Numbered from the stretch's first letter, positions 1-42,126 are shown. The stretch is DNA of 42,126 nt from a virus (IMGVR_UViG_3300012838_000029:1-42126); one strand, 5' to 3'. The notes: generated by a model not told the origin, from the sequence alone. Made by a program: numbers and translations.

Positions 1-1077
1 GTGCCGCCCGAGGTGGACCTCAGCGGCCTGACCTTCATGCCGCTCGACGTGCAGCGCCTGCGCGACAGCGAGCTGGTCTCCGACGCCTCGCCGCAGGAGT
101 TCCGCGCGGCGGTCCTGCTGTGGTGTGCGGCCTGGCACCAGGTGCCGGCGGCGAGCTTGCCCGACAAGGACTCCACACTTGCACGCCTGGCGGGCTTCGG
201 TCAGTCGCCGTCCGAGCTGCGCGCGTGGCGCAAAGTGCGTGAAGGAGCGCTGCGCGGCTTCGTCCTCTGTCGAGATGGACGCTTGTATCACCCGGTTGTC
301 GCCGAGAAGGCACTCGATGCGTGGTCCGAGCGCAGAGAGGTGCAGGGCATGCGCGAAGCCGAAAGCGTGCGCAAGCGGCGGGAACGCGCATGGCGCTCGG
401 CGGCAACGGACGTGCTGCGAAATCACGGCATCGTCTTGGAATACAACGTGACCACCGGCGAACTCCGCAAGCGCATGGAGTCGCTCGGGTACGTCATCGT
501 GGTTGATGAATCCTTCTCCGCGTCCGTGACAGGTCCGCGTGACAGTCACGGACGGGCTACGGCTAAGAAGAGAAGTGAAGTGGAGGGGAGTGAAGAGGAG
601 TGGAGTGGAGAGGAGAGAAGAGAAGCTGTTAATACAAAAGCTGCGCGCGCAGCAGAGGGAGACAACAGCCCAGCAGCACAGCTCGCTGCGGTGCTCGCGG
701 CAGCGCACGGTCGGCCGGTGGCCGCCGATGACCCGGAGGTACAGCGGGCAGTAACCGAGGGGATCTCGAAGGCCGAGCTGGAAGCGGCATGCGCGGGCGT
801 GGTGGGCGGCAAGCCGCCGCGGTACTACGTGCAGCGCGCCATCGGCCGGCGCCTGGATGCCAAGGGCAGTACGCCGGCCGCACCCGCTGCCACACGGCCC
901 AGAGATCCCGATGCGGAAGCGCGGGCCGAGCGGCGCCGGGCGATCGAGGACCAGATCATCGACGTGCGCCACTGCGCCGATCGCGGCATCGGGGACTGGA
1001 CGCCGGAGCGCGCCGCGGCACGCATCGCCGAGCTGCAGACGGAGCTGGCCAGCCTGGCCGAGGAGGTGGTCTCGTGA
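1..1077 (+). CDS. DUF1376/YdaU-family phage replication protein (true start may lie just before the window)
   Basis: N-terminal 'FMPLDVQRLRDSEL...AAVLLWCAAWHQVPAASLPD..LARLAG' is typical of DUF1376. Contains an internal repeat tract. Confidence 0.8.
   Translation: MPPEVDLSGLTFMPLDVQRLRDSELVSDASPQEFRAAVLLWCAAWHQVPAASLPDKDSTLARLAGFGQSPSELRAWRKVREGALRGFVLCRDGRLYHPVVAEKALDAWSERREVQGMREAESVRKRRERAWRSAATDVLRNHGIVLEYNVTTGELRKRMESLGYVIVVDESFSASVTGPRDSHGRATAKKRSEVEGSEEEWSGEERREAVNTKAARAAEGDNSPAAQLAAVLAAAHGRPVAADDPEVQRAVTEGISKAELEAACAGVVGGKPPRYYVQRAIGRRLDAKGSTPAAPAATRPRDPDAEARAERRRAIEDQIIDVRHCADRGIGDWTPERAAARIAELQTELASLAEEVVS
521..640 (+). repeat. Putative replication origin inside the initiator gene: iteron-like repeats plus 12 tandem purine pentamers
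   Basis: CGTGACAG at 525-532 and 538-545. 10-bp inverted repeat CGTCCGTGAC (521-530) / GTCACGGACG (545-554). Twelve tandem (A/T/G)G(A/G)AG pentamers at 566-625, followed by TTAATACAAAA. Confidence 0.6.
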
Positions 1078-1388
1078 CCGCGTTCTCGCAGGCATTGCGC
1101 GCAAGCGTAGTTGGGCAGCCCGCTCACATGGCCGGAGAGCCCTACGCCAGCGCTGCTAACCCGCTGGGCGCAGCCGGAAAGGTTAGATATTCGTTAAGGA
1201 AACCAAACCCGGCGGCCGGGGTCAATAGAATCAATGGGTTACGCTGTGCCCGCGCCGGTCGGGGCGGGCCACGGACCCCACCCCCCCTTCGCATCAGCCC
1301 GCCCGGGAAGGGGGGCGGCCAACTATTGGCCCCTCGAAAAATGGGAGGGGTACATGGGCCACTCCCCCGGCGCGAGGTGCGAGCGTGA
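1074..1388 (+). CDS. Possible 104-aa 'bridge' ORF across the structured IHF region
   Basis: GTGA overlaps with the upstream stop (1074-1077) and the downstream start (1385-1388). Low-complexity product with no recognisable family. Confidence 0.35.
   Translation: MTAFSQALRASVVGQPAHMAGEPYASAANPLGAAGKVRYSLRKPNPAAGVNRINGLRCARAGRGGPRTPPPLRISPPGKGGGQLLAPRKMGGVHGPLPRREVRA
1229..1241 (+). promoter_or_regulatory. IHF binding site consensus
   Basis: AATCAATGGGTTA is a perfect match to WATCAANNNNTTR, in a locally AT-rich patch of a GC-rich genome. Confidence 0.6.
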
Positions 1389-2542
1389 GCGCGGCGCGGG
1401 CGGAGAGCCCGGCGGAGGTGCCGCAGCTGCCCGCTGCGGTGCTGGAGGCGCTGGCAGGCGTGCCGAATGGGCAGGAGCTGCTCGGCTACCGGGCGCGGCT
1501 CCTGGCGCGCCCTGGCGGGTTCCCGGCGGTGATGGCGCGAGTGGAGGCCCTGCCGATGGCGCCGGCGGCGCTGGCGGAGTTGTGGACCTGGCTGGTGCAC
1601 CTGGCCATCGACTGCGGCTCTCGGCCGGAGACCACGGGGCAGAGCTACGGGCGGACGGTCGGGCGGTTCCTGTCCTGGTGCCACCGGGAGGGCGTTGACC
1701 ACCGCACGGCAGCCCTCAAGGACTTCGAGCGCTGGCAGCGGTGGCTGGCCTTCGAGCTGAAGAACCGGGAGACTTGGCGGGCGCAGCAGGTGTTCGCCCT
1801 GCGGAATTTCTACGACTGGCGGCGCAGCCGCGGCCTGGCCCAGGCCAACATCGCCGCGGACCTGCGCGGGCCGCGGGTGAAGCCGCGGCCGCCGCGAAAG
1901 TACACCACCGAGCAGCTCAAGGCGCTGTTCCGCGCCATCGCCCAGGCGCGCAGCGACCGGGTGGTGCGCGACCGCTGCGCGGTGCTGCTGCTCCTGGCCA
2001 CCGGCCTGCGACGCGAGGAGTTGGCGTCGCTGGAGCTGGGCTCGATCGAGCTGACACGCCGGCACGGCGTGGTGCGGGTCCAGGGCAAAGGCGCCAAGCA
2101 GCGTGACGTGCCGTTCGAGGGGCCGGCGGTCGACGCGCTGCACGAGTGGCTGCAGCACCGCGACCAGCTGCCATGGATCGTCGACACCGAGTCACTGTTC
2201 GTCTCGCTCACCGGGCCGACGCAGGGCCGCGCCCTTGCGCTGCGCAGCTTCGAGACCATGGTGGGCACCCACGCCCGGGAGGCGAAGCTGCGGGACTGGG
2301 GCATCCACCGGTTCCGCGTCACCTTCGCCACGCAGCTGTACGACGACGGCGCGGACATCGAGACGATCCGCGCCCTGATGGGCCACGAGACCATCGAGAC
2401 CACGCGCCGCTACCTGGCGGTATCCGAGCGCGCCCGTCGCACCCGCCTGCGCGCGGACCGCCAGCACGCGGTCCTCGGCACCAAGCCCACCGGTACGCCG
2501 ATGTGGGTCCGCCTGGCGGCGGGGGAGCTGACCCGTGATTGA
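1385..2542 (+). CDS. Tyrosine recombinase, XerC/XerD-like (no arm-binding domain evident)
   Basis: Complete catalytic set: GLRREE (R), GKGAKQR (K), HRFR (HxxR), LMGH (H), TRRY (Y). SAM-like N-terminal domain. Confidence 0.92.
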   Translation: MSAARAESPAEVPQLPAAVLEALAGVPNGQELLGYRARLLARPGGFPAVMARVEALPMAPAALAELWTWLVHLAIDCGSRPETTGQSYGRTVGRFLSWCHREGVDHRTAALKDFERWQRWLAFELKNRETWRAQQVFALRNFYDWRRSRGLAQANIAADLRGPRVKPRPPRKYTTEQLKALFRAIAQARSDRVVRDRCAVLLLLATGLRREELASLELGSIELTRRHGVVRVQGKGAKQRDVPFEGPAVDALHEWLQHRDQLPWIVDTESLFVSLTGPTQGRALALRSFETMVGTHAREAKLRDWGIHRFRVTFATQLYDDGADIETIRALMGHETIETTRRYLAVSERARRTRLRADRQHAVLGTKPTGTPMWVRLAAGELTRD

Positions 2543-2933
2543 CGGAATCCAGTTCAGCGACCGCGGCGATGCGCCCACGGAGTTCGAGGTGCGGCTTCTG
2601 CAGCAGACCCAGGGTGATACCGCGTGGCTGGTCACCGGCCAGCGCCTGATGGCGGAGCTCGGCGCCGCGGCGGGCGCCCGTGCACTGGCGATCGTCCTGG
2701 ACGAGCTGGGCGGCGAGAAGCTCCGCGTGACCCAGCGTCGCCGGTTCTTCGAGGCGCTCTGGCGGGAACAGCGCGACGCCCTGGTGCGTGACCTGGCGAC
2801 CCGTGGCGACTGGACCTACCGGGACATCGCCGAGGCGCTGGGCCTGAGCCATCGGCTGGTGCGCGCTATCGCCGGGGGGTGCCACGGGCCGGGGCGACAG
2901 TGGCACGGCGGGTGTGAGATATCCGGGCAATGA
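2535..2933 (+). CDS. Mor/C-family transcriptional activator (late gene activator)
   Basis: 'ELGGEKLRV...RDALVRDLA...YRDIAEALGLSHRLVRAI' fits the Mu Mor/C pattern (GG motif plus C-terminal HTH). Lies directly upstream of the terminase genes. Confidence 0.72.
   Translation: MIDGIQFSDRGDAPTEFEVRLLQQTQGDTAWLVTGQRLMAELGAAAGARALAIVLDELGGEKLRVTQRRRFFEALWREQRDALVRDLATRGDWTYRDIAEALGLSHRLVRAIAGGCHGPGRQWHGGCEISGQ
2876..2906 (+). promoter_or_regulatory. Late-promoter/activator motif, copy 1
   Basis: GGGGTGCCAC-N5-GGGGCGACAGTGGCAC ends 23 bp before the terS ATG. Same motif at 9908-9938 and 30016-30046. Confidence 0.75.
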
Positions 2934-3688
2934 CCCGCCGTCCGCCCGCCGTCCGGAAGAAGCGCCAGCTCAGCGAAGCCGAGCTGGCCCAACGCCGCGC
3001 CGCCTCCCGCAAGGGCGCCGAGGCGGCGACGGGCCCGCGCACGCCGGAGGGCAAGGCCCGCAGCTCGCGCAATGGCTGGAAGCACGGCCTCACCAGCGCC
3101 GTGCACCGGCAGCACTTCGACCAGGGCATGGCCGCGCTGATGGGCTCCCTGGCCAAGCCATGCCTGTCCACCTGCCCGAAGTACCCCTGCTACGCCGTCG
3201 AGGCGGAGATGACCGCGCCTGGCGGCAGTTGCATGGACAAGGAGCGCTACGTCCACGCCTTCACCGCGATCATCGACGCGGTCGAGAACAACGCCTCGGA
3301 GGGCATGAACGCCCTGATGGCCAGCGAGGTCGCCAGCACCCTGCAGATGCTCCACGACATGAAGGCCCGCTGCGCGGACCTCGGCCCGATGATCGGCATT
3401 CAGGCGGTCACCGCCGATGGCGTCGCGGTCTACGGCAAGGACGGCGAGCCGGTCATGGCCAAGTGGGTGCCGAACCCCGGCTGGCCGGTCGTGCTCAAGA
3501 CCCTCGAGGTGCTGGGCATCAGCCTGCCGGAACTGCTGGCCACGCCGCAGGCCAAGGCCCGCGCAAAGGTGGAGGGCGAACAGGTCGACGCCGTGCAGCA
3601 GCTGATGGGCGGCATCTTCCAGCGCGCCGCCGCGGCGCGGCTGCCCGCGGCCGGTGGGCGCGTGATCGACCACGACGAGGGCGGCTGA
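2930..3688 (+). CDS. terS: Probable terminase small subunit
   Basis: Directly upstream of and coupled to terL. 'TGPRTPEGKARSSRNGWKHGL' motif and a Cys cluster (CLSTCPKYPC). Confidence 0.6.
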   Translation: MTRRPPAVRKKRQLSEAELAQRRAASRKGAEAATGPRTPEGKARSSRNGWKHGLTSAVHRQHFDQGMAALMGSLAKPCLSTCPKYPCYAVEAEMTAPGGSCMDKERYVHAFTAIIDAVENNASEGMNALMASEVASTLQMLHDMKARCADLGPMIGIQAVTADGVAVYGKDGEPVMAKWVPNPGWPVVLKTLEVLGISLPELLATPQAKARAKVEGEQVDAVQQLMGGIFQRAAAARLPAAGGRVIDHDEGG

Positions 3689-5562
3689 TGCGCCAGCGCA
3701 GCGCCACCGGCATCCTGCAGGCGCAGATGCTCGATCGCGGAGTGTACGAGCCCGACGAGTTCGAGCAGTGGCTGGCGGAGCGCGGCTGGTCCTGGCGCGG
3801 CCTGGACCGCGGCGCCTATGGGCTGACCGTCGACGAGGCGCTGTTCGTGTTCACCTGCGAGGACCCGCTGCGCTGGGCGGAGACGTACCTGGTCGAGCCG
3901 GACACCGGCGACCCGTACCGGTTCTGGGATTACCAGCGGCCGAGCGTGCGCGCCTGGATGCAGGACGTGATCCACCAGGACGGCGCGGAGTGCGGCAAGA
4001 CGCGCGAGATCATCGCGCTGATCGCGTGGTCGGGGTGCACCTCGGTGGGCGGGCGCATCGCCAACCCGTGGTCGCTGGTGGCGGCGCCGCAGCAGACCCA
4101 CCTGGACGAAATCATCCTCGCGCTGGAGGAGCAGTTCGGCGCAGCCGAGTCGGGCAAGGGCCACAGCCTCCTGTCTCGCTTCTGGCTCAAGCCGAAGAAG
4201 ACCCCGCACGTGATGCACCGGTTCCTCGCGCCCAACCCGGTCAACCCGGCGCGGCCGAGCATCGCGCGCACTTACTACCGGCCCGGCGGCCATGACGGCG
4301 AGGCTTTCCGCGGCGTGCACGTCAACGCCTTCGGCTTCTTCGACGAGGCGGCCAAGGTCAAGAACGCGGTGATCTTCTCCGAGTTCTGGCGCGCCCTGAA
4401 ACCCGGCTGCCGCTCGCGCGTCTACTCCGTGCCCGACGGCGACCGCAGCACGGAGTACTTCAAGCTCACCCAGACCGCACGGCTCAACCTGCCGGAGGAC
4501 CAGGACGGCTTCCGCCTGTTCCGCTGGCAGCAGCCGATGAAGCCGCCGCCGTTCTGGGATGCCAAGCGCGAGGCGGACATGGTGCGCCGGTTCTCCGGCC
4601 GCAACACGCCCGGCTACCAGCGCAACGTCCTGGGCGAGTGGGGCCAGGCCGAGAACCCGGTGTGGCCCTTCGGCGCGCTGCTGCCCAACGTGGTGGATCT
4701 GCCGGACTACCGCGTGATCAAGCTGCAGGCCGACGCGGAATCCGACTCGCTGAGCATCGAGGTCATGGCGGTGACGCTCACCGTCCAGGACGGCCGCAAG
4801 GTCGGCGAGTACCGCTGGCTGCAGGACTCGGCCACCGGCCTGGCCGAGCTGCTGCGCGGCAGCGACGACGGCCGCCGCCAGGCCATGGCCGCGATCCTGC
4901 GCCCGCACATCCCGGCGGTGTCGCAGGGCGTGTTCTGGGCCGGCGCCGACCTGGGCGAGCGCAACGACCCCACCGAGATCATCCTCAGCGAGGAGGTCGG
5001 CACGCTCTGGCGCGACAAGGTGCGCATCCACGCCAAGGGCTTCCCGTACAACCTGCAGAAGGAGCTGATCGCCGCGCTGGACAGCCTGTTCGGCAACCTG
5101 CCGTTCTGGGGCGCGGACCTCGGCAGCGCCGGCACCACCGTGGTCAAGGACCTGATCGCCGAGGACCGCTTCGCGGACCTGCACTTCGAGGACCGGATGA
5201 TCGGCTTCCACTTCCAGCAGTCGGTCGAGTGCATCGGCGAGGACGGCGAGGCACTGGAGGACGAGGACCCGCGCACGGGAACCCGCAAGGTGATCGCCGC
5301 GCCGGCCAAGCACTGGGCCACCCAGTGCATCTCCGCCCGGCTGCAGGCCCACGGCTACGCGCTGCCGTACGACCCCGAGGCCATGACCTCCATGGCCACC
5401 CAGACCGCCCGGCAGGGCGCCCGCTGGCCGATCTACTCAAAGCAGTTGGACCACTTCCCCGACGCACGCCGCCAGCAGATGTTGCGGAAGATCCGCAGCG
5501 TGATCGACGACGGCGGCGGCGTGGACCTGTTCGCCAGCGGCGTGGTGGAGCGCGCGGCGTGA
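3688..5562 (+). CDS. terL: Terminase large subunit
   Basis: Walker A-like GAECGKT, Walker B FFDEAA, nuclease GADLG..ND motif and C-terminal DHFPDA. 624 aa; ATG overlaps the terS stop. Confidence 0.88.
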   Translation: MRQRSATGILQAQMLDRGVYEPDEFEQWLAERGWSWRGLDRGAYGLTVDEALFVFTCEDPLRWAETYLVEPDTGDPYRFWDYQRPSVRAWMQDVIHQDGAECGKTREIIALIAWSGCTSVGGRIANPWSLVAAPQQTHLDEIILALEEQFGAAESGKGHSLLSRFWLKPKKTPHVMHRFLAPNPVNPARPSIARTYYRPGGHDGEAFRGVHVNAFGFFDEAAKVKNAVIFSEFWRALKPGCRSRVYSVPDGDRSTEYFKLTQTARLNLPEDQDGFRLFRWQQPMKPPPFWDAKREADMVRRFSGRNTPGYQRNVLGEWGQAENPVWPFGALLPNVVDLPDYRVIKLQADAESDSLSIEVMAVTLTVQDGRKVGEYRWLQDSATGLAELLRGSDDGRRQAMAAILRPHIPAVSQGVFWAGADLGERNDPTEIILSEEVGTLWRDKVRIHAKGFPYNLQKELIAALDSLFGNLPFWGADLGSAGTTVVKDLIAEDRFADLHFEDRMIGFHFQQSVECIGEDGEALEDEDPRTGTRKVIAAPAKHWATQCISARLQAHGYALPYDPEAMTSMATQTARQGARWPIYSKQLDHFPDARRQQMLRKIRSVIDDGGGVDLFASGVVERAA

Positions 5563-7387: not shown

Positions 7388-7758
7388 GCCGCGGTGACGA
7401 GGCGGCCTGCGCTCCCGACTCCGCTCGGCTGTTCGCCGACCTGCAGGCGTGGCACGCCACCATGCGCGAGATGGAGGCCAACAGCCGGCAGCTGTGCACG
7501 GCCCTGCGCTGCGGTCCAGACCTGCCCCTGCTGCAGAGCGCCTGGGCGCTGGCCTATGGCTACATCGCCCAGCTCGCCGCCCGCCATGGCATCGATGCGC
7601 ACTGGCTCACCTGGTGGTGGGAGGAATGCCGGCTGGGCGACACCCCGGCCGACTGTGCGCTGCCGGGCGCCCCCCCCAACACCATCAGCACCGTCGCCGA
7701 GCTGGCTGCCGTGATCCTGGCGGACCGTGCCCGCCCCCCACAGGAAGAAGCCGCATGA
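7384..7758 (+). CDS. Hypothetical phage protein
   Basis: GTGA and ATGA coupling at both ends; globular-looking sequence containing WLTWWWEEC. Confidence 0.6.
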   Translation: MSRGDEAACAPDSARLFADLQAWHATMREMEANSRQLCTALRCGPDLPLLQSAWALAYGYIAQLAARHGIDAHWLTWWWEECRLGDTPADCALPGAPPNTISTVAELAAVILADRARPPQEEAA

Positions 7759-9899: not shown

Positions 9900-9900
9900 T

Positions 9901-12952: not shown

Positions 12953-12959
12953 CGGGGGA

Positions 12960-31908: not shown

Positions 31909-31916
31909 GGCCGCCG

Positions 31917-33531: not shown

Positions 33532-33597
33532 AGTATAGGGCCGCTTAACTTGCCCGGGTTCAGGTGGGCTTGACATGGCGTCAAGGCCGCCTATACT
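33532..33597. promoter_or_regulatory. Lysis/lysogeny switch: three operators and divergent promoters
   Basis: GTnnAG-N5-CTnnAC at 33533-33549, 33558-33574 and 33580-33596. Rightward promoter TTGACA (33570-33575)-N16-TATACT (33592-33597). Leftward -10 TATACT (33537-33532). Confidence 0.78.
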
Positions 33598-33607
33598 CCG
33601 GGTCAAG

Positions 33608-33844: not shown

Positions 33845-34335
33845 TGCACGCCATCCTGACCACCCCCGCGTTCCCGCCGCGACCGGCCCAGCAGGGCAGG
33901 GCGACAGGGCCGACTGCGGCCGAGCCCACCTCCGAGACCAGCCGCCAGCTGGAGCAGGCCCTGAGCCAGTTGGAGGAGGTCGCTGCGCGGCAGCGGGGAA
34001 CCGCCCAGGCCGGGCGCACCCTGGCCGACGTCTGCGCCCGCCACCTGCGGGCCAACCAGCCGGCGGCGCACCAGCCGCGGGCCGCCGTCCGCCACGCCGG
34101 CAACCCCATCCGGGAGGCGCGGGCGAAGGCCGGGCTGTCCCTGCAGAAGCTGGCGGCGCGCCTGGGCATCACCGCCAGCTGCCTCCACTACTGGGAGACC
34201 GACGGCAACTTCATCGGCGTGGACCGCCTGCGGGAGCTGCGCGCCGCGCTGGCCCCGCACTTCGACCTCGAGGCGTATCTGGCTCACGCCGAGCGGGTAG
34301 GGCGCACCCGCGGGCGTGCGGAGAGGGGCCGCTGA
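33844..34335 (+). CDS. XRE HTH protein
   Basis: C-terminal 'IREARAKAGLSLQKLAARLGITASCLHYWET'. Confidence 0.75.
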   Translation: MHAILTTPAFPPRPAQQGRATGPTAAEPTSETSRQLEQALSQLEEVAARQRGTAQAGRTLADVCARHLRANQPAAHQPRAAVRHAGNPIREARAKAGLSLQKLAARLGITASCLHYWETDGNFIGVDRLRELRAALAPHFDLEAYLAHAERVGRTRGRAERGR

Positions 34336-35093
34336 TGGACACCCTCGTCCCGGCCATCGGCTACATCCGCGTCAGCACGCAGGAGCAGGCGGCCAACGGC
34401 CACAGCATCGAGCAGCAGCGCGTGCGGCTGGAAGCCTGGGGCCTGGCGCGCGGCCTGCGCTACGTGGACATCCTGGTGGACGCCGGCGTCTCCGCCGGCA
34501 AGCCGCTGCACAAGCGCCCGGGCGGGGCCGAGCTGCTGCGCCGCATGCGCGCCGGCGAGGCCGAGGTGGCCGTGGTCGTGTCGATCGACCGCATGTTCCG
34601 CGACGCCCAGGACGGCCTCAACACGCTGCTGGGGCAGGGCAGGGAACCCGGCCTGCCGCTGCAGTCGGTGACCGACCCCTGCGACACCACCACCGCGATG
34701 GGCCGCTTCATCCTCACCGTTTGGCTGGCCCGCGCGCAGCTGGAGCGCGAGCAGACGTGCGAGCGCAACGCCGCCATCGCCCGCGGCCTGCGCCGCGCCG
34801 GCCGCCCCAACGGCTTCACCCCCTACGGCTGTGTGCTGGTGGACGGCCAGCTGTACCGCGACCCGGCCACGTGGCCGGTGCGCGAGCAGATCGTCGCGCT
34901 CGCCGCCCAGGGCCTGGGCACCCGCGCCATCGCCACCCGCCTGGCTGAGCAGGGCATCGCCGCTCCCCTCGGCGGGGCGCGCTGGTCTAAGACGTCGGTG
35001 GGCCGGGTGATCGAGTCGCATGACGGGCTGAACCATATCCCCGCGCTGCCCGGCGCAGAAGAAAGCCGCATTTCACAGGAGCCCACCCCATGA
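34335..35093 (+). CDS. Serine recombinase (resolvase domain plus short recombinase DNA-binding domain)
   Basis: 'GYIRVSTQEQ' catalytic Ser, 'DAGVSAG...RPG', 'IDRMFR', 'DTTTAMGRF', 'PYG', 'W....V.R'; 252 aa. Confidence 0.9.
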   Translation: MDTLVPAIGYIRVSTQEQAANGHSIEQQRVRLEAWGLARGLRYVDILVDAGVSAGKPLHKRPGGAELLRRMRAGEAEVAVVVSIDRMFRDAQDGLNTLLGQGREPGLPLQSVTDPCDTTTAMGRFILTVWLARAQLEREQTCERNAAIARGLRRAGRPNGFTPYGCVLVDGQLYRDPATWPVREQIVALAAQGLGTRAIATRLAEQGIAAPLGGARWSKTSVGRVIESHDGLNHIPALPGAEESRISQEPTP

Positions 35094-35368: not shown

Positions 35369-35959
35369 ATGCTTGCCGAGCGTCCCACCCGCAGCCAGGT
35401 CCTCGCGGCCGCCATCACCGATGCGGTGATGCAGTCGCGGCTGGGCTGGCGTGCCTACGCCCAGGCGGTGGTCGACCACTACCTGGCGACCACCGCCGTC
35501 GTGGACCGCGTCATCGCGTTCCGCGTGGCCACCACGGCCGAGCAGTACGAGGAGGCCGCCGCCCTCAACACGCAGACCGTGCGCCGCATGGTCTCCGGCG
35601 AGAAGGTCATCCCGCTGGATATCAGCGAGTCGCTGGTGGAGGCGCTGCCGGAGCCGTTCCGCGAGCGCACGCTGGCGGTGCTGGCCGGCCGCTTCGGCCT
35701 GATGGCCGCGCGCAAGCCGCCGGCCCCGGGCGTGCCGGGCGGCGCGTACATCGGCCCCTGCCGCCTGATGCGCGACACCGCCGCCGTACTGGAGCCGCTG
35801 GCCGCCGCCTTGGAAGACAACCTCCTCACCCCTGACGACCTGCCCGCCATGCAGCAGGCGCAGCGCCGCCTGGGCGACCTCATGGGCACCTGCCTGCAGG
35901 TGGAGGCGCAGCTGCAGCAGGCGGCCGAGGGCATGGCCGCGCCGGGAGCGCGCGCATGA
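35369..35959 (+). CDS. Phage regulatory protein (CII/YmfL-like)
   Basis: GGAGG SD; helical, with C-terminal 'AALEDNLLTPDD' as in CII/YmfL-like proteins. Confidence 0.55.
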   Translation: MLAERPTRSQVLAAAITDAVMQSRLGWRAYAQAVVDHYLATTAVVDRVIAFRVATTAEQYEEAAALNTQTVRRMVSGEKVIPLDISESLVEALPEPFRERTLAVLAGRFGLMAARKPPAPGVPGGAYIGPCRLMRDTAAVLEPLAAALEDNLLTPDDLPAMQQAQRRLGDLMGTCLQVEAQLQQAAEGMAAPGARA

Positions 35960-36357: not shown

Positions 36358-36600
36358 GTGCATCAGTCCATCACAGCAGCACCGGCCGCGCAACCTGCGC
36401 TGCCCGTCGTCCTCGTCAGCGACATCATGCTTACCGACCACTACGCCCGACGCCGCGCCGCGCACTACCAGGTGGCCGCCGCCCCGGTGGTCGCCGCCGG
36501 CCGTGGCGCAGCCATCTTCCACCACGACCGCGTGGCCGGCTACCGCGCCGCGGAAACCGCCGCCTACGGCCTGGCCGTGCTGCAGGGGAGGGCGGTCTGA
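36358..36600 (+). CDS. Hypothetical protein
   Basis: GGAGG SD; stop overlaps the rdgC start. Confidence 0.55.
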   Translation: MHQSITAAPAAQPALPVVLVSDIMLTDHYARRRAAHYQVAAAPVVAAGRGAAIFHHDRVAGYRAAETAAYGLAVLQGRAV

Positions 36601-37505
36601 TGTTCTTCCGCAACCTCACCCTGTTCCGCTTCCCGGCCGGCCACGACTTCAGCCAGCTCGCCGAGCTGCTGCCGGAGGCCGCGCTCAAGCCGGTCGGCCC
36701 GCTGGAGCTCGGCACCGCCGGCTTCATTCCGCCGCTCGGGCGGGATTCCACCGAGCTGATGCACCGCATCGGCGACGCCATCTGGCTGGCGGTGGGCGAG
36801 CAGCGCAAGCTCCTGCCGGCCGCCGTGGTCGCCGATGCGCTGGCGCGTCGCATCGCCGAGGTCGAGCAGCGCGAGGGCCGCAAGCTCGGCGGCCGCGCCC
36901 GCAAGCGCCTGAAGGACGAGGTGCTGCACGAGCTGCTGCCCAAGGCCCTGGTCCAGAACCGCCGCACCGACGCCATCCTGGACCTGCAGCTAGGGGTGCT
37001 GTTCGTCGACACGGCCAGCCGCAAGGCGGCAGCAGCCGTGGCCAGCGAGATCCGCCGGGCGCTGGGCAGCTTTCCGGCCCTACCGGCGGCCGCCGAGACC
37101 GAGCCGCGCGCGGTGCTCACCTCCTGGCTTGCCGGCGAGCCGCTGCCGGAATGCATGCACTTTGGCGATGAGTGCGAGCTGCGCGACCCCGCCGATGGCG
37201 GGGCCGTGGCCAAGCTTCAGCACCACCAGCTGCACAGCGAGGAGGTGGCACGCCACCTGGAGTCCGGCAAGCAGGTGGTCCGCCTGGGCCTGTGCCTGGA
37301 CGACCGTCTCGGCTTCGTCCTCGGCGATGACCTGGTGGTGCGCAAGCTGCGCTTCTTCGAGGCCGCCGTCGAGTCGCTGGAGAACACCGAGCACGACGAC
37401 CTGCACGCCGAGCTGGACGCCCGCTTCGCCCTGATGGCCGGCGAGGCCCGCCACCTGTTCCGGGTGCTGGAGCAGGCCCTGCACATCCGGGCGGGGGAGG
37501 GCTGA
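36600..37505 (+). CDS. rdgC: Recombination-associated protein RdgC
   Basis: 'MFFRNLTLFRF...KLLPAAVV...LKDEVLHELLPKA...VDTASRK.A...LGSFP...LDARFALM'. Confidence 0.93.
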   Translation: MFFRNLTLFRFPAGHDFSQLAELLPEAALKPVGPLELGTAGFIPPLGRDSTELMHRIGDAIWLAVGEQRKLLPAAVVADALARRIAEVEQREGRKLGGRARKRLKDEVLHELLPKALVQNRRTDAILDLQLGVLFVDTASRKAAAAVASEIRRALGSFPALPAAAETEPRAVLTSWLAGEPLPECMHFGDECELRDPADGGAVAKLQHHQLHSEEVARHLESGKQVVRLGLCLDDRLGFVLGDDLVVRKLRFFEAAVESLENTEHDDLHAELDARFALMAGEARHLFRVLEQALHIRAGEG

Positions 37506-38195: not shown

Positions 38196-38512
38196 ACGAC
38201 GCCGACTTCATCGCCGCCATGCAGCAGGGCCTGCCGCCGCTGCCGAAGGGGCTGGAAGTGCTGGAGCTGGGCAACGCAGACCTCTCGGCGTCCAGCACCT
38301 GGACCGGCCGCACCGAGCCGAACGAGGCCGCGCCGCTGCCGCAGTACCCGCAGCGGGATGACCTGCCCGAGACGCCTGAGAAGCCGCTCACCTTCGCCGA
38401 GGCCATGGAGCGCAGCGCCCGCCGCCTGGCGCTGGCTGACACGGCCTTCTGCGCGCTGTTCTTCCTGGTGGGCGCCGGCGGCGCGCTGCTGCTGGGAGGT
38501 ATCGCGGCATGA
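38192..38512 (+). CDS. Hypothetical protein with C-terminal TM segment
   Basis: GGAGG SD; ATGA coupling at both ends. Confidence 0.6.
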   Translation: MNDADFIAAMQQGLPPLPKGLEVLELGNADLSASSTWTGRTEPNEAAPLPQYPQRDDLPETPEKPLTFAEAMERSARRLALADTAFCALFFLVGAGGALLLGGIAA

Positions 38513-39468
38513 CCACCATCACCCCCTTCCGCCGCAGCCCCGTCAGCGCCATGAGCATCGCCGACGGCGTCGTCCACTACCTGCAGCGGCTGCAGCGGCG
38601 CAACCGCAGCCTCAACACGCTCAACGCCTATCGCAGCGACCTCAGCCAGTTCGCCGGCTTCCTGCAGCGGTTGGGGCAGGGCGACCTGGTGGCCACGGTG
38701 GGCCAGGCCCAGGTGTCGCGTTGGCTGGATGACCTCTCCGCCGAGGGCGTCAGCCCGCGCAGCCAGGCGCGCAAGCTCTCCGTGCTGCGCGGGTTCTACA
38801 AGCATGCGATGCGCGAGGGCTGGATCGGCTTCGACCCCACCGCCGACGAGTCCGTGCGATTCCGCGCGGCGCGGGTCATCGCGCCGGAGATGGACGAGCT
38901 GCACGCGGTGATCGACGCCATCCCGCGCCAGGGCTGGCGCAACCTGCGCGATCGGGCGCTGCTGCGCCTTGCCCTGGACACCGGCGCCCGCATCAGCGAG
39001 CTGGGCGGGCTGGACGTGCCGGGCAGCCCCTCGCAGTCCGTGGTGGACCTGCGCCGCGGCCTGGCCCACGTGCTGGCCAAGGGCGGCGATATCGACACCC
39101 TGCCGTTCAACGCCGCCACCGGCCGCATGGTCGAGGACTGGCTCGCCGCCCGCCCGGAGGTGGCCAGCCCAGGCCACGCTGCCTTGTTCGTCAGCAACCG
39201 CGGCAACCGCTGCAGCCGCGCCACCCTGCACCAGGTATGCAAGCAGCGCGGCGAGGCAGTGGGCCTGCGCCTGCACATGCACCTGTTCCGCCACCGTCGC
39301 GGCTCCATGGTCATCGAACGCTGCGGCGACAAGCTCGGCCAGCAGTTCCTGCGCCACCAGAGCCTGGCCACCACCAGCCAGTACGGCCGCCACGCCAACA
39401 ACCGCACGCTCGGCGTGATCCGCCAGCTGGCGGATATCGACGAGGGGAGGGTGGCATGCAACGGATGA
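38509..39468 (+). CDS. Second tyrosine recombinase, XerD/XerC-like
   Basis: 'SLNTLNAYRSDLSQF...SPRSQARKLSVLRGFYK' SAM-like domain; catalytic TGARISE, AKG, HLFRH, LRH, TSQY. Confidence 0.92.
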   Translation: MTTITPFRRSPVSAMSIADGVVHYLQRLQRRNRSLNTLNAYRSDLSQFAGFLQRLGQGDLVATVGQAQVSRWLDDLSAEGVSPRSQARKLSVLRGFYKHAMREGWIGFDPTADESVRFRAARVIAPEMDELHAVIDAIPRQGWRNLRDRALLRLALDTGARISELGGLDVPGSPSQSVVDLRRGLAHVLAKGGDIDTLPFNAATGRMVEDWLAARPEVASPGHAALFVSNRGNRCSRATLHQVCKQRGEAVGLRLHMHLFRHRRGSMVIERCGDKLGQQFLRHQSLATTSQYGRHANNRTLGVIRQLADIDEGRVACNG

Positions 39469-39761
39469 TCGCCCACCCCGAAGGCCTGCCCGCTTGCCGC
39501 AACGGCCACCCCGCGCGCCATATCCAGGACGCCCGCGCCCTGCGCGCCGGCGGCGGCCACCTGCTCGAGTGCCGCTGCTGCCACACCGGCAAGCACGCCG
39601 ACTACGACGACGCCCTGCGCGAGTGGTGCCAGGCCCACGGCCACCCGGCACCGAGCGTCGAACCCCAGCGGCCGCTGCCGCTGGGCAATGTCACCCCGCT
39701 GCACCGCCACCGCGCGGCTGACGCCTTCGGCGCCGGCGAGCGGCTCCCCTCTGCCCGTTGA
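39465..39761 (+). CDS. Cys/His-rich hypothetical protein
   Basis: 'CRNGHPARHIQDAR...GGGHLLECRC'. Confidence 0.65.
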   Translation: MIAHPEGLPACRNGHPARHIQDARALRAGGGHLLECRCCHTGKHADYDDALREWCQAHGHPAPSVEPQRPLPLGNVTPLHRHRAADAFGAGERLPSAR

Positions 39762-39769
39762 GGTCTGTC

Positions 39770-40030
39770 ATGTCCGACCAGAACGAAATCCTGTTGCAGG
39801 CGCTGCGCTCCGGCCCGATGACCGCGCTGGAGATCCTGGACACCCTCGGCATCGCCCGCGCCAGCGCCCGGGTCTACGACCTGCGCCGGGCCGGCCACGA
39901 CGTGCGCAGCGAGATGATCACCGTGCACAACCGCCGCGGCGAGCCTTGCCGCGTGGCCGCGTACTCCCTCGCAGTCCAGACGGCAGCGACGCCGAAGGCG
40001 ATCACTTCCGAGCGGATGCGTGCGCAATGA
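39770..40030 (+). CDS. Winged-helix HTH protein
   Basis: 'QNEILLQALRSGPMTALE....GIAR.SARVYDLR..GH.V...MITV......RVAAY'. Confidence 0.75.
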   Translation: MSDQNEILLQALRSGPMTALEILDTLGIARASARVYDLRRAGHDVRSEMITVHNRRGEPCRVAAYSLAVQTAATPKAITSERMRAQ

Positions 40031-40680
40031 GAGCCCTTACTAGCGCCTCGCCATTAAGGCAGTTACTTCTCGACAGAGCCGTCAGCGGCGCCTTTCAGGA
40101 AGAAGCGCTTGAGGCGCGTACGCGCTGTTGCGATCTGTCGAATATCGTCCTCAAAGCGTCCAATGTACTCATCCAGGAAAGCCATCTTAATGGTCAGGTC
40201 TCGAACGGGCGGCACAAGTGGCGGCCCGGACGTGCTTCCGACATTGAACCGCGTGATGACGGCCATGATCTGCGCGGCCGTCTCCCCATCGAAAGCACCC
40301 AGCTGATCCACGAAGCGAAGCGTGAGCTGAAGCGAGGCGCGGGCGTACCTCTCGGCCAAAGCGGTGGCTACCTCCTTGGGCATCCGGTGACCTCGCTCGC
40401 CCTTGGCATCCCCAACCGCTTGACACAGATGCGAATCGAGTTGGGCGAACTCGTTGTCGATCACGCGCGCAAGGCGGTCCGCCGTATGCGCGCGCGCAGT
40501 TTCTGCCTTCTGAGCTTCAAAGCGACGTTGGCTCTCAATTGCGCGTCGGGATTCGCCGGCGGTCCAGAGAGCCACGGCAGCCGCAACGAAGGTGCTGACT
40601 GCACCGACGGCGGTCCAGTCGATCCAACTTCCGAGTGCAGCCCACCAGTCGGCGCCGGCTTGGAGCAAGTGCATGCGTAA
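40027..40680 (+). CDS. Possible 'bridge' ORF overlapping an antisense gene
   Basis: ATGA overlap with the upstream stop; its own stop overlaps the next ATG by 8 nt. May be only a shadow ORF. Confidence 0.3.
   Translation: MRALTSASPLRQLLLDRAVSGAFQEEALEARTRCCDLSNIVLKASNVLIQESHLNGQVSNGRHKWRPGRASDIEPRDDGHDLRGRLPIESTQLIHEAKRELKRGAGVPLGQSGGYLLGHPVTSLALGIPNRLTQMRIELGELVVDHARKAVRRMRARSFCLLSFKATLALNCASGFAGGPESHGSRNEGADCTDGGPVDPTSECSPPVGAGLEQVHA
40063..40674 (-). CDS. N-terminally membrane-anchored protein (antisense moron)
   Basis: 'IDWTAVGAVSTFVAAAVALW' TM segment followed by a helical domain; distinct codon usage. Confidence 0.7.
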   Translation of the reverse strand: MHLLQAGADWWAALGSWIDWTAVGAVSTFVAAAVALWTAGESRRAIESQRRFEAQKAETARAHTADRLARVIDNEFAQLDSHLCQAVGDAKGERGHRMPKEVATALAERYARASLQLTLRFVDQLGAFDGETAAQIMAVITRFNVGSTSGPPLVPPVRDLTIKMAFLDEYIGRFEDDIRQIATARTRLKRFFLKGAADGSVEK

Positions 40681-41080
40681 CCCCCCCGAACCCATCTGGC
40701 GGCATGGTTGCGCCGAGCGAGCACCCTTCGCAAGTCCCCGCCACAGGAGGGAGGTGCTGTGTGCTTCGGGGCAGGGCGCAACGGGTAGGCCAGCCAATCT
40801 GGTTGTTTGCCCGGCCTGTGGCTCGGAAGCTGGGGCCCGCATCTGCTGCGGCGTCGACCTGGCCGCGCCGTTCGTGATGACCACCGCGCGCATCCGCTCG
40901 CTGCGCCGCTACGCCCACGGCATGAAGGGTTTGGACGAGCCGACCTACCGCCTGCACCTGGCTGCAGTCGGCGCCGCCAGCACCACCGAGCTGACGCGCG
41001 AGCAGCACACCGCGCTGCTGCGCCGGCTCGGCGCGCTGCCTAACCGCCCGCGCAAGCGGGGCAGAGGAGCGGCGGCATGA
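40673..41080 (+). CDS. GemA/DUF1018-like protein with CxxC motif (start uncertain)
   Basis: 'KGLDEPTYRLHLAAVGAASTTELTREQ' resembles the Mu GemA N-terminal motif; CPAC..CC. Confidence 0.55.
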   Translation: MRNPPEPIWRHGCAERAPFASPRHRREVLCASGQGATGRPANLVVCPACGSEAGARICCGVDLAAPFVMTTARIRSLRRYAHGMKGLDEPTYRLHLAAVGAASTTELTREQHTALLRRLGALPNRPRKRGRGAAA

Positions 41081-41238
41081 AGCTCGACCAGGAACGCCCC
41101 ATCGCCACGCTCGCCGACGCCATCGCCGCCGCCGAGTTCGCCCTCAACCACACCCCCGAGGGATGCCCCTCGCTGGTGATGCCCTACGCACTTCAGCTGC
41201 TCTTGGCAGCGGCACGGGAGACCAGGTGTGATGATTAA
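41077..41238 (+). CDS. Hypothetical 53-aa protein
   Basis: GAGGAG SD, ATGA coupling; MKLDQERPIATLADAIAAAEF... Confidence 0.55.
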   Translation: MKLDQERPIATLADAIAAAEFALNHTPEGCPSLVMPYALQLLLAAARETRCDD

Positions 41239-41917
41239 GATCGCTCTAATCTGCCAGCGACTCAAGTTCTCGCAGGGCGATCCCGAGGGCTGCATCCGCA
41301 CGATCGAAGATCAGCCCTACGTCCTCTGGCTCCTCCATCTCATCTTCGTCTCCGGTCTCGTGGTCGACGATGACTCCGCCGTACCGCCAGTATGTGTACT
41401 GCGTGTACACGCCGACGCGGACCAGTTCAAATGCAACTACGGCGCGTTGGAGCGCAACACCAGCGTCCTCGAGATGATAGAGCTCGGGGAGCCGGGTATT
41501 CAGCGCGTCCGGGACCACCAGGGGCTCCACGACATCATCGTCGTTGTATCTCTTCGGCACATGCCTCCAGCGGGCCCGTGCAGTCCAGAGCGCACCCTGC
41601 ATAGCTTGTACATGCGGTATCAGGACGAAGGCGAGTGCCCGTGCTCTGAACCGCCTGGTGCGCTCCAACTGAACCCGCTCGTTCCTTGCGATACGCGTCG
41701 GCACGCCAATCGCCACAAGAAGAGCAACGATGGTTCCAATAGCCTGAACCCAAGCCGCTTGGGCCCCCGGCTCAAGCGCACAAAATCCTATCCAGTGACA
41801 GTCCATATCCCCTCCGCTGCCCCTCCGTCTGACTGCCAGTCATTGTCACCTGACTGGAGCCCTAGACGTAGGCGTAGGCTGTTGCACTCTCTCCCCAGGA
41901 CGGGGGCAGCCGGATGA
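41231..41917 (+). CDS. Possible 'bridge' ORF overlapping an antisense gene
   Basis: ATG overlaps the upstream stop by 8 nt; ends in ATGA with the next gene. May be only a shadow ORF. Confidence 0.3.
   Translation: MIKIALICQRLKFSQGDPEGCIRTIEDQPYVLWLLHLIFVSGLVVDDDSAVPPVCVLRVHADADQFKCNYGALERNTSVLEMIELGEPGIQRVRDHQGLHDIIVVVSLRHMPPAGPCSPERTLHSLYMRYQDEGECPCSEPPGALQLNPLVPCDTRRHANRHKKSNDGSNSLNPSRLGPRLKRTKSYPVTVHIPSAAPPSDCQSLSPDWSPRRRRRLLHSLPRTGAAG
41246..41806 (-). CDS. N-terminally membrane-anchored protein (antisense moron)
   Basis: 'AAWVQAIGTIVALLVAIGVP' TM segment; GAGGGG SD. Confidence 0.72.
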   Translation of the reverse strand: MDCHWIGFCALEPGAQAAWVQAIGTIVALLVAIGVPTRIARNERVQLERTRRFRARALAFVLIPHVQAMQGALWTARARWRHVPKRYNDDDVVEPLVVPDALNTRLPELYHLEDAGVALQRAVVAFELVRVGVYTQYTYWRYGGVIVDHETGDEDEMEEPEDVGLIFDRADAALGIALRELESLAD

Positions 41918-42126
41918 GCGCCGACTGCCCTGTAGCCCGGCCGGCCCCAGCCTTTGCCGTCGCTGGCTTCCCGATCAGCGCGGCGGACCACGATGCCGTA
42001 GCCCTTGCAATCTCTGATGATCTGGCGCTGGTCGGGTCGCTGATGAGGCTGTACCGCTTTAGCTCCATAGAGGCGACGGACTACCTGACTTTCTGCAAAA
42101 GCAGGGTGGATGGAGGTGACAAGTGA
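41914..42126 (+). CDS. Hypothetical protein
   Basis: ATG start, stop at the last base of the window. Confidence 0.45.
   Translation: MSADCPVARPAPAFAVAGFPISAADHDAVALAISDDLALVGSLMRLYRFSSIEATDYLTFCKSRVDGGDK

What the first reader, a model, noticed from the sequence alone, without database searches (positions are those of the whole stretch)
1..42126. Mu-like phage with no DDE transposase but two Xer-like tyrosine recombinases, a serine recombinase and RdgC
Seen: two catalytically complete tyrosine recombinases (1385-2542 and 38509-39468), neither with an evident lambda-Int arm-binding domain. Also a serine recombinase placed as the third gene of the early operon (34335-35093) and RdgC. All three recombinases sit inside lytic-direction operons rather than alone next to an att site. 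Established: Mor/C, GemA, gpF and gpT-type capsid are hallmarks of Mu-like phages, which normally encode MuA/MuB, and the serine recombinase sits where MuA follows ner. Inference: this lineage may use an undescribed integration, excision or resolution system, such as a phage-encoded XerC/XerD-like heteropair acting on its own site, or programmed rearrangement during lytic growth.
Basis: partly seen in the sequence, partly recalled or inferred. Interest (0 to 1): 0.8.

Follow-up and report, generated by a model that had tools for sequence, protein, structure and literature searches.

The report
Tailed prophage lineage that targets dif
This prophage is not a Mu-type transposing phage that lost its transposase: it belongs to a tailed-phage lineage whose members sit at the bacterial chromosome's dimer-resolution site (dif) and always carry three extra recombinases, whose jobs are so far only predicted.

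Summary
There are two catalytically complete Xer-like tyrosine recombinases (Int1 1385-2542, Int2 38509-39468), a 252-aa serine recombinase (34335-35093) and RdgC. No DDE transposase was found.

The Mu framing fails. All Mu hallmark hits score below their curated cut-offs.

All 20 distinct full-length relatives keep Int1, Int2 and the serine recombinase in the same places. One of them is the GenBank isolate KY697807.1. So these genes are core genes of the lineage, not sporadic.

Eighteen of the 20 also carry a fourth Xer-like recombinase, Int3. It lies antisense beside an attP that copies the XerD arm and central region of dif. In all 6 integrated relatives whose right end I read, a full dif-like site lies next to Int3; that site was searched genome-wide in 5 of them and occurs once in each.

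The window's own left flank, read from an identical 1-Mb contig, is host DNA. It ends in such a site about 160 nt before position 1. Int3 is not in the record. In the two other records that lack Int3, the border falls exactly where Int3 begins in their nearest relatives, so here it is probably cut off as well.

The roles of Int1, Int2 and the serine recombinase remain inferred.

This scan found the same lineage before on other DNA (e1-6289886).

The parts
1..1077 (+). Replication protein (DUF1376). First gene of the record. The dif-like attL lies about 160 nt upstream, outside the window.
   Evidence: PF07120 at E 1.2e-9. PHROG 22470 'replication protein' at E 9.6e-62. attL at L045:9839, Rep start at L045:10001.
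1078..1384 (+). Conserved non-coding stretch between Rep and Int1, with invariant blocks. Function unknown.
   Evidence: Six-sequence alignment with invariant runs. No Rfam match. The same block lies in the 81-nt terminal repeat of KY697807.1.
1385..2542 (+). Int1: Xer-like tyrosine recombinase, catalytically complete. Always the gene before the late activator and the terminase genes.
   Evidence: Int1/Mor-like/g2930/TerL synteny in 8 of 8 IMG/VR loci. Orthologue in 20 of 20 full-length relatives. Its own clade in the tree.
2535..2933 (+). Mor-like late transcriptional activator candidate. Overlaps the Int1 stop by 8 nt.
   Evidence: PHROG 836 at E 8e-6. Weak HTH_23 hit.
2930..5562 (+). Candidate small terminase (2930-3688) and large terminase (3688-5562).
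   Evidence: Position before the portal gene; 75% identity in relatives. No Pfam, PHROG or PDB sequence hit. Protein Atlas features point to Terminase_6N/6C clusters at score 0.99, a lead only.
7755..27084 (+). Siphovirus head and tail module: portal fused to a MuF-like domain, decoration protein, capsid, tube, tape measure, DUF1833, NlpC/P60, gpJ-like tip.
30172..32198 (+). Lysis block ending in an Rz1-like spanin.
   Evidence: PF23793 at E 7.8e-10. PHROG 11951.
33190..33504 (-). cI-like HTH repressor, divergent from the early operon.
   Evidence: HTH_3 and HTH_31 at E 2e-11.
33575..34335 (+). Cro-like and a second HTH protein, at the start of the early operon.
34335..35093 (+). 252-aa serine recombinase: an intact short form, not a truncated integrase. 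Second or third gene of the early operon in all relatives.
   Evidence: Orthologue in 20 of 20 full-length relatives. 255 homologues; 119 of the 120 listed are 190-283 aa and one is 175 aa. Catalytic residues invariant or nearly so.
35369..35959 (+). CII-like transcriptional activator.
   Evidence: PHROG 4834 at E 8.8e-28.
36600..37505 (+). RdgC homologue.
   Evidence: PF04381 at E 3.1e-89.
38509..39468 (+). Int2: Xer-like tyrosine recombinase, catalytically complete, in the early operon.
   Evidence: Orthologue in 20 of 20 full-length relatives. Its own clade in the tree.
39456..39761 (+). Cys/His-rich 101-aa protein that follows Int2.
   Evidence: PHROG 34716 at E 2e-23. Adjacent to Int2 in G002, G003, G006, G333 and G221.
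39758..41080 (+). HTH_39 protein (39758-40030) and a weak GemA-like protein (40592-41080).
   Evidence: Both are conserved in relatives.
41081..42126 (.). Right end of the record: lower G+C, poor coding signal, no match in relatives. It holds no Int3 and no dif-like site.

Best explanation
The window is a temperate siphovirus prophage in a bacterium of the Stenotrophomonas/Luteimonas family, not a Mu-type transposing phage, and it belongs to a lineage whose members sit at the chromosomal dif site; integration is likely carried out by a fourth Xer-like recombinase (Int3) that probably lies just past the record's right border, and the two tyrosine recombinases and the serine recombinase inside the window are predicted to act after induction on the dif-like junctions or on replicated phage DNA.

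Shown:
- The gene content and catalytic completeness of the recombinases.
- Their conservation across the lineage.
- In relatives, attP lies between Int3 and the replication gene. It consists of a XerD-type arm, a 6-bp centre and a phage-specific arm.
- Integration leaves attL (XerD-type arm, centre, phage arm) and attR (phage XerD-type arm, centre, host XerC arm).
- attR is the only full dif-like site in the lysogen genomes searched.
- The window's left flank is host DNA and ends in an attL of this type.

Inferred:
- Int3 takes XerC's place on the phage arm and works together with host Xer proteins.
- attL cannot be used by XerCD, which keeps the prophage stable.
- Int2 (early operon) and Int1 (co-transcribed with the late activator) supply the excision or directionality function that an Xis would otherwise give, or they process multimers.
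- The role of the serine recombinase is unknown. It is an early, intact enzyme.
For: Gene map:
-.

Synteny and conservation:
- Int1, Int2 and the serine recombinase are in 20 of 20 distinct full-length relatives. These are G001, G002, G003 (=G007), G006, G333 (=G410), G018, G221, twelve further IMG/VR records and KY697807.1.
- Int3 is in 18 of the 20.
- The two records without Int3 (G409, G419) end exactly where Int3 begins in their nearest relatives.

att sites:
- attR with a host XerC-type arm lies beside Int3 in 6 of 6 integrated relatives whose right end I read.
- attL was found in 4 relatives.
- attP was found in the circular or virion-derived records G001 and KY697807.1.
- The full site pattern occurs exactly once per genome in 5 of 5 lysogen genomes.
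- An inovirus sits in tandem at the same site in G002.

The window itself:
- L045 is identical at 11073 of 11074 bases. Its upstream 10 kb encodes a pyridine nucleotide-disulphide oxidoreductase, FtsK, LolA, an MgsA/RarA-family ATPase, DUF4124 and a GH9 enzyme.
- attL at L045:9839 carries a phage arm matching 13 of 15 bases of the KY697807.1 attP arm.
- The host FtsK is 85% and 78% identical to those of G006 and G007.
- A homologue of the RarA-family protein (81% identical) lies next to attR in G221.

Identity of the recombinases:
- They are Xer-like but not XerC or XerD. The tree gives five separate clades, each with 99-100% support.
Against: - The window record holds neither Int3 nor attR, and I could not read the DNA to the right of 42126. 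Loss of Int3 is therefore not excluded.
- The window's attL is atypical. Its 6-bp centre departs from the T-R-T-R-C-A pattern of most relatives (G018's centre also departs from it). Its host-side half keeps only the inner 7 bases of the XerD-type arm. The site could be decayed or secondary.
- No experiment or binding test supports any assignment of recombinase to DNA arm.
- Int1 is only about 1.5 kb from attP or attL and is about as conserved as the terminase, so it could itself belong to the integration machinery.
- No recombination site for the serine recombinase was found.
- The relatives were collected with Int1 or TerL as bait. The 20 of 20 for Int1 is therefore partly by construction for the 7 found with Int1. 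It is not by construction for the 13 records found with TerL.
Confidence: 0.6

Rival explanations
1. Int1 and Int2 form a phage-encoded XerC/XerD-like heteropair that itself recombines attP with dif. One partner sits on each arm. Int3 is an accessory protein or a back-up.
For: - Both are complete and present in 20 of 20 relatives.
- The att sites have two unlike arms, as a heteropair would need.
- Int1 lies about 1.5 kb from attP.
Against: - Int3, not Int1 or Int2, abuts attP (within about 0.2 kb) and is antisense to all lytic genes, as integrases usually are.
- The Int1 and Int2 genes are 37 kb apart, in different operons.
- Binding between them was not tested.
Confidence: 0.15
2. Int1 is a Cre-like enzyme. 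It would act on a site in the conserved Rep-Int1 intergenic stretch, next to the packaging genes, to circularise incoming DNA or to make or resolve multimers during replication. This would be independent of dif.
For: - The intergenic stretch holds invariant blocks, including a short dyad with a conserved spacer, in 6 of 6 aligned relatives. The same block is in the terminal repeat of KY697807.1.
- Int1 is always directly upstream of the late activator and terminase genes.
- The phage encodes RdgC. From recalled knowledge, RdgC restrains RecA.
Against: - The dyad arms are only 6-7 bp long.
- The block could equally be a promoter, an origin, a pac site or a leader.
- The terminal repeat in KY697807.1 may be an assembly overlap at a G/C homopolymer.
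Confidence: 0.15
3. The extra recombinases are inert passengers or decaying duplicates with no role in the phage life cycle.
For: No function could be assigned by sequence.
Against: - Catalytic residues are intact.
- No internal stops in any relative.
- They keep fixed positions across relatives whose terminase is only 55-57% identical.
Confidence: 0.03
4. A Mu-like transposable phage whose transposase is too divergent to recognise.
For: Weak GemA, Mu F and Mu-portal similarities, and a Mor-like activator.
Against: - All of those hits are below their cut-offs.
- No rve domain in six frames.
- There is a dedicated replication gene.
- Relatives sit at one specific site, with site-specific junctions.
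Confidence: 0.01

Closest known systems
IMEXs: integrative mobile elements exploiting Xer (CTXphi, VGJphi, TLCphi, Xanthomonas Cf/XacF1-type inoviruses; dif-type DJR phages in PMC12715192, passages read)
   Same: - Insertion at dif through an attP that mimics part of dif.
- A usable dif is rebuilt at one junction.
- Tandem arrays with other dif elements occur, as with the inovirus beside G002.
   Different: - These are 41-52 kb tailed phages.
- They carry their own Xer-like recombinase beside attP, plus two more and a serine recombinase.
- Classical IMEXs encode no recombinase.
- Here the XerC-side arm of attP is replaced by a phage-specific arm.
Chromosomal XerC/XerD
   Same: - Same fold class and size.
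- Same six catalytic residues.
- Best NCBIfam and PDB matches.
   Different: - They score 140-164 bits against cut-offs of 330-335.
- They form three clades separate from host XerC and XerD.
- They are phage-borne.
Tyroviruses (Bacillus phages, PMC9703825, passages read)
   Same: A phage group defined by three conserved Xer-like tyrosine recombinases whose roles are only guessed.
   Different: - Tyroviruses are 160-170 kb Bacillus phages.
- No dif targeting is reported in the passages I read.
- They have no gene synteny with this lineage.
Microcystis phage MACPNOA1, GenBank KY697807.1
   Same: - A member of the same lineage, with Int1, a Mor-like gene, terminase, serine recombinase, RdgC, Int2, antisense Int3 and a dif-like attP in the same order.
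   Different: - Only 44-55% identical in these proteins.
- Deposited as a cyanophage although it has 68% G+C.
- The record's annotation does not mention dif. The three papers that name it were seen only as search listings.
Phage Mu and B3/D3112-type transposable phages
   Same: - The early operon diverges from a repressor gene.
- Distant head-gene similarities.
- A Mor-like activator sits before the late genes.
   Different: - No MuA or MuB.
- Its own replication initiator.
- Site-specific junctions in relatives.

Membership tests
XerC/XerD (chromosome dimer resolution recombinases) | Reaches the curated equivalog score (TIGR02224 / TIGR02225) | tested here: not met
   Int1 scores 156 and 145 bits; Int2 scores 140 and 122 bits; the cut-offs are 335 and 330. 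Host XerC and XerD of G006 and G007 pass.
XerC/XerD (chromosome dimer resolution recombinases) | Catalytic R-K-H-R-H-Y set | tested here: met
   Alignments to XerD chain 1a0p.
XerC/XerD (chromosome dimer resolution recombinases) | Groups with host XerC or XerD in a tree | tested here: not met
   Int1 (9 sequences), Int2 (8), Int3 (7), XerC (5) and XerD (3) form five separate clades, each with 99-100% support.
IMEX (element exploiting host Xer at dif) | Integrated at dif and flanked by dif-like hybrid sites | tested here: inconclusive
   Met in relatives: attR in 6 of 6 and attL in 4; the site is unique in 5 of 5 genomes. For the window, only an atypical attL was seen. attR could not be reached.
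IMEX (element exploiting host Xer at dif) | Encodes no recombinase of its own and relies on host XerCD | tested here: not met
   Int3 sits beside attP in 18 of 20 relatives. Int1 and Int2 are in all 20 and in the window.
Mu-like transposable phages | DDE transposase MuA (with MuB) | tested here: not met
   No transposase family among the 72 ORFs scanned. No rve domain in six frames.
Mu-like transposable phages | Insertion at many sites by transposition | tested here: not met
   Relatives lie at one site with site-specific junctions.
Mu-like transposable phages | Mu-type GemA, Mor, gpF, portal and gpT genes above family thresholds | tested here: not met
   GemA, Mu F and Portal_Mu are all below their gathering scores. 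There is no Mor or gpT Pfam hit.
Lambda-type integrases | N-terminal arm-type DNA-binding domain | tested here: inconclusive
   No such Pfam domain in Int1 or Int2. Int1 has an unassigned N-terminal extension of 65-80 aa. The structure job could not be run.
Large serine recombinases (phage integrases) | Full recombinase domain plus a zinc-ribbon and coiled-coil domain; about 450-700 aa | tested here: not met
   The protein is 252 aa and covers only positions 2-51 of the 102-position PF07508 model. 119 of the 120 listed homologues are 190-283 aa and one is 175 aa, but only lengths of 138-441 aa were searched.
Small serine recombinases (resolvase/invertase) | Catalytic domain with the active-site Ser and Arg residues, plus a short C-terminal DNA-binding domain | tested here: met
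   PF00239 at E 5e-27. Matches to Gin/Hin-type invertases and gamma-delta resolvase. Y10, R12, S14, R86 and R89 invariant, D85 nearly invariant. The C-terminal part is the helical first half of the 'Recombinase' domain rather than HTH_7.
RitABC / Tn554 TnpA-TnpB recombinase trios | Adjacent, co-oriented tyrosine recombinase genes forming one module | tested here: not met
   The Int1 and Int2 genes are 37 kb apart. In relatives Int3 is antisense and lies 4.5-9 kb beyond Int2.

The most novel reading that the evidence does not exclude
A lineage of tailed phages carries a private, multi-subunit Xer machine. Int3, Int1 and Int2 would occupy the different arms of attP and dif, so that the phage enters and leaves the chromosome's dimer-resolution site without FtsK control. 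The early serine recombinase would be a further, still unknown step. This would be a tailed-phage counterpart of the IMEXs that brings its own enzymes.
Probability: 0.2. Interest if true: 0.85.

Novelty: new variant of a known kind. Interest (0 to 1): 0.68.

Why it matters
Insertion at dif has been described for filamentous, double jelly-roll and microvirus-type prophages that borrow host XerCD. My six literature searches found no description of a tailed phage that does this.

A 40-50 kb tailed phage at dif raises three questions:
- How does chromosome dimer resolution keep working?
- How is the prophage protected from XerCD/FtsK?
- How is excision triggered?

Four conserved recombinases in one phage give a tractable system for these questions. 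Culturable lysogens exist (Stenotrophomonas sp. MMGLT7 and Luteimonas terrae 4099, as titled), and so does a sequenced isolate.

There is also a practical point. Provirus callers cut off the Xer-like integrase in 2 of 13 related records, and probably here too. That makes such phages look as if they have no integrase.

Tried and rejected
- Circular or permuted record. The end-to-start ORF continuity and the Logan contig lengths first suggested a circular genome. I rejected this once L045 showed host genes upstream.
- tRNA as att site. The only ARAGORN call lies inside the serine recombinase gene, and there is none in the left flank.
- dif-like sites inside the window. None were found, so Int1 and Int2 have no internal dif-type site.
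- Repeats that could serve as inversion or deletion sites. Only a 34-bp dyad in three direct copies before late gene blocks was found. It is more likely regulatory.
- Rep-based metagenome loci. Of the 80 loci returned, I annotated the 37 that are 6 kb or longer. Only L045 belongs to this lineage; the other 36 share at most the DUF1376 replication gene, and three also have a weak RdgC hit.
- Right flank of the window.
- Structure prediction of the serine recombinase. The machine was busy twice.
- Co-folding Int1 with Int2. Not sent, because any two tyrosine recombinases are likely to pass by likeness to solved tetramers, so the result would not discriminate.
- First tree. It contained five wrong-frame ORFs. 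It was rebuilt after picking ORFs by BLAST.
- Fragments G004 (29 kb) and G005/L004 (11 kb) were left out of the co-occurrence counts. G004 has Int1 and the serine recombinase, but no Int2 orthologue in the part held.
- G268 is flagged unpublished. It had an Int1 orthologue and was not used further.

Full report
**What the window is**

The window is an IMG/VR 'provirus' record of 42,126 bp with about 70% G+C. I called genes by third-position G+C and annotated them with Pfam and PHROGs. Almost all genes lie on the + strand, in this order:
- a DUF1376 replication gene (1-1077; PHROG 'replication protein' at E 1e-61);
- Int1 (1385-2542);
- a Mor-like late activator candidate (2535-2933);
- two terminase candidates (2930-5562);
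- RadC and an HNH endonuclease;
- a portal fused to a MuF-like domain, a decoration protein, capsid, tail tube, tape measure and a gpJ-like tip;
- an antisense SRAP gene;
- a lysis block ending in an Rz1-like spanin (to 32198);
- an antisense cI-like repressor (33190-33504);
- the early operon: cro-like, a second HTH protein, the serine recombinase (34335-35093), a CII-like activator, RdgC (36600-37505), Int2 (38509-39468), a Cys/His-rich protein, an HTH_39 protein and a weak GemA-like protein (40592-41080).

The last kilobase has lower G+C and poor coding signal.

**Checking the observation**

Both tyrosine recombinases are complete. Aligned to XerD, each keeps the Arg, Lys, His-x-x-Arg, His and Tyr residues.

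The serine recombinase has a full catalytic domain but only the first half of the 'Recombinase' domain. It is not a broken integrase. Its family has 255 members at E <= 1e-10, and 119 of the 120 listed are 190-283 aa, with one of 175 aa (only lengths of 138-441 aa were searched). The active-site residues Y10, R12, S14, R86 and R89 are invariant and D85 is nearly invariant in 36 aligned members.

RdgC is unambiguous.

No transposase family was found in 72 ORFs, and no rve domain in six frames.

The 'Mu hallmarks' do not hold up. GemA, Mu F and Portal_Mu all score below their gathering thresholds. There is no Mor or gpT Pfam hit.

With a replication initiator and a cI/cro/CII-like switch, this phage has no need of a transposase. 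The position of the serine recombinase after cro says nothing about its function.

**Relatives**

Using Int1 as bait in IMG/VR gave 8 loci. All 8 keep the block Int1 / Mor-like / g2930 / TerL.

Using Int1 in species genomes found prophages in Stenotrophomonas sp. MMGLT7 (G006) and Luteimonas terrae 4099 (G007, the same prophage as IMG/VR record G003).

A sample of 400 genomes of G006's family held 5 with an Int1 orthologue. One of them is unpublished and I did not use it.

Using TerL as bait in IMG/VR added 13 records of 32-52 kb.

After removing one duplicate (G410 = G333) and adding GenBank KY697807.1, I have 20 distinct full-length relatives. Their recombinase content is:

| Gene | Present in |
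|---|---|
| Int1 | 20 of 20 |
| Int2 | 20 of 20 |
| Serine recombinase | 20 of 20 |
| Int3 | 18 of 20 |

All are in the same order and none has an internal stop. The two fragments G004 and L004 were left out of these counts.

**A fourth recombinase and the dif site**

The relatives carry one more Xer-like gene, Int3 (about 312 aa). It is antisense to everything else and lies at the far right end of the prophage.

In G006, a search for a recalled dif core motif found a site 175 bp from the Int3 start. Following this up gave these results:
- In all 6 integrated relatives whose right end I read (G002, G003, G006, G333, G018, G221), Int3 is followed by a site with a XerD-type arm, a 6-bp centre and a XerC-type arm.
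- In 4 of them I also found the left junction 0.2-2.3 kb upstream of Int1. It has a XerD-type arm and the same centre, followed by a phage-specific arm in place of the XerC arm.
- In the circular or virion-derived records G001 and KY697807.1, the corresponding attP lies between the Int3 start and the replication gene.
- The full site pattern occurs exactly once in each of 5 lysogen genomes, at attR.
- In G002 an inovirus (replication protein G2P, ssDNA-binding protein, Zot-type ATPase) sits in tandem at the same site, bounded by the same kind of repeats.

I read this as integration at the chromosomal dif, by crossover within the shared XerD-arm-plus-centre segment. Integration rebuilds a usable dif at attR.

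**The window's own ends**

A metagenome contig of 1.02 Mb is identical to the window at 11073 of 11074 bases compared. It supplies 10 kb of left flank.

That flank is host chromosome. It encodes a pyridine nucleotide-disulphide oxidoreductase, FtsK, LolA, an MgsA/RarA-family ATPase, a DUF4124 protein and a GH9 enzyme. The FtsK is 85% identical to that of G006 and 78% to that of G007.

About 160 nt before window position 1 lies an attL-type site (L045:9839). Its phage arm matches 13 of 15 bases of the attP arm of KY697807.1.

A homologue of the RarA-family protein also lies next to attR in G221, so the neighbourhood is at least similar.

Two cautions apply to this attL:
- Its 6-bp centre departs from the pattern of most relatives.
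- Its host half keeps only the inner 7 bases of the XerD-type arm.

The site may therefore be decayed or secondary.

**Where is Int3 in the window?**

Int3 is not in the record, and the record contains no dif-like site.

In relatives Int3 lies 4.5-9 kb after Int2. The record ends 2.7 kb after Int2.

Two of the 13 TerL-baited records (G409, G419) also lack Int3. Aligned to their nearest relatives, both end exactly at the gene boundary where Int3 begins. Provirus callers evidently sometimes trim this Xer-like gene as if it were host DNA.

I therefore think Int3 and attR lie just beyond 42126. I could not read that DNA, so loss of Int3 is not excluded.

**What the recombinases are**

NCBIfam ranks XerC first for Int1, Int2 and Int3. 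The scores are 140-164 bits against a cut-off of 335. The host XerC and XerD proteins pass their cut-offs.

In a maximum-likelihood tree, Int1 (9 sequences), Int2 (8), Int3 (7), host XerC (5) and host XerD (3) form five separate clades, each with 99-100% support. The branching among the clades is unresolved. A first tree was spoiled by five wrong-frame ORFs and was rebuilt.

The window looks mosaic. Its Int1 groups with the G001-G006 set, while its Int2 groups with G221 and G018.

**How it most likely works**

Shown: the site structure and the gene order.

Inferred:
- Int3, whose gene abuts attP, binds the phage-specific arm and takes XerC's place. Host Xer proteins occupy the dif-type arms.
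- attL lacks a XerC arm, so XerCD/FtsK should not excise the prophage.
- No Xis-like or XafT-like gene was seen in the Pfam scans. Directionality may therefore come from Int2 (early operon) and Int1 (translationally coupled to the late activator), both expressed only in lytic development.

This last step is the weakest. Rivals are a true Int1/Int2 heteropair at attP, and a Cre-like role for Int1 on the conserved Rep-Int1 intergenic stretch.

I can offer no supported role for the serine recombinase. It is an intact, early, universally conserved enzyme with no recognisable site.

**Comparison with what is known**

The papers I searched describe dif insertion for inoviruses, double jelly-roll phages and microvirus-type proviruses. 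PMC12715192, of which I read passages, contrasts 'dif-type' elements without a recombinase against 'int-type' elements with other targets.

No paper describing a tailed phage at dif turned up in six searches. Subscription journals are not covered by these searches.

Tyroviruses conserve three Xer-like recombinases of guessed function (PMC9703825, passages read).

KY697807.1 has been public since 2017. It is annotated with 'XerD' three times (one is really the tail tube), a Pin homologue and an integrase. The three papers that name it were seen only as search listings.

I reached the dif reading, before I looked that note up.

**Verdict**

The interesting object is a dif-targeting tailed-phage lineage with four recombinases, and this record shows three of them.

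Noticed in passing
window 5917-5999 (+): A C4 antisense RNA (Rfam RF01695, 73.9 bits against a gathering score of 45) lies between the large terminase and RadC. In P1/P7-type phages, by recall, this RNA controls an antirepressor.
   Followed up: no
window 2876-2906, 9908-9938, 30016-30046: Three direct copies of a 34-bp dyad: 10-bp inverted ends around a partly conserved 14-nt middle. Each sits just before a block of late genes (terminase, head, lysis). They are candidate late-activator sites or RNA hairpins. Among the relatives scanned, only L004 has one.
   Followed up: partly
window 1078-1384; L004, L005, L008, L031 and L129 equivalents; both ends of L179: The Rep-Int1 intergenic stretch has invariant blocks in 6 of 6 relatives and no Rfam match. 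In the window and L004, a 15-codon mini-ORF starts in the conserved block and ends overlapping the Int1 start. In KY697807.1 the block lies in the record's 81-nt terminal repeat.
   Followed up: partly
window 34935-35029 (+): ARAGORN calls a 95-nt tRNA-Arg(TCG) inside the conserved serine recombinase ORF. This is most likely a false call in G+C-rich coding DNA.
   Followed up: no
L007 163-6554 (record G002): An inovirus-like element (CI-like repressor, G2P replication protein, ssDNA-binding protein, Zot-type ATPase) lies in tandem to the left of the tailed prophage. It is bounded by the same dif-like repeats.
   Followed up: partly
L179 (GenBank KY697807.1): This 'Microcystis phage' has 68% G+C and is a member of the lineage found in Stenotrophomonas and Luteimonas genomes, so its stated cyanobacterial host looks doubtful. 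Its portal gene is annotated 'glycerone kinase' and its tail tube 'XerD'.
   Followed up: partly
window 3688-5562: The presumed large terminase (624 aa, 75% identical in relatives) has no Pfam, PHROG or PDB sequence match. Only language-model features point to Terminase_6 clusters.
   Followed up: partly
L031 5455-5625 (G006, left of attL): A second copy of the Cys/His-rich gene that normally follows Int2 lies outside the prophage, to the left of its attL. This suggests another related element, or a remnant, in tandem at dif.
   Followed up: no
attP and attL right halves in L005, L031, L129, L045: The phage-specific arm is usually part of a short palindrome of 6-7 bp halves with a 5-13 nt spacer. 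This may be a second protein-binding dyad next to the core site.
   Followed up: no
records G409 and G419 (L175, L176): These provirus records end exactly at the gene boundary before the Xer-like integrase. Provirus callers appear to trim it as a host gene, which makes such phages look as if they have no integrase.
   Followed up: yes
window 27326-28482 (-): An antisense pair of genes between the tail and lysis blocks: an SRAP (SOS-response-associated peptidase) protein and a 79-aa ORF.
   Followed up: no
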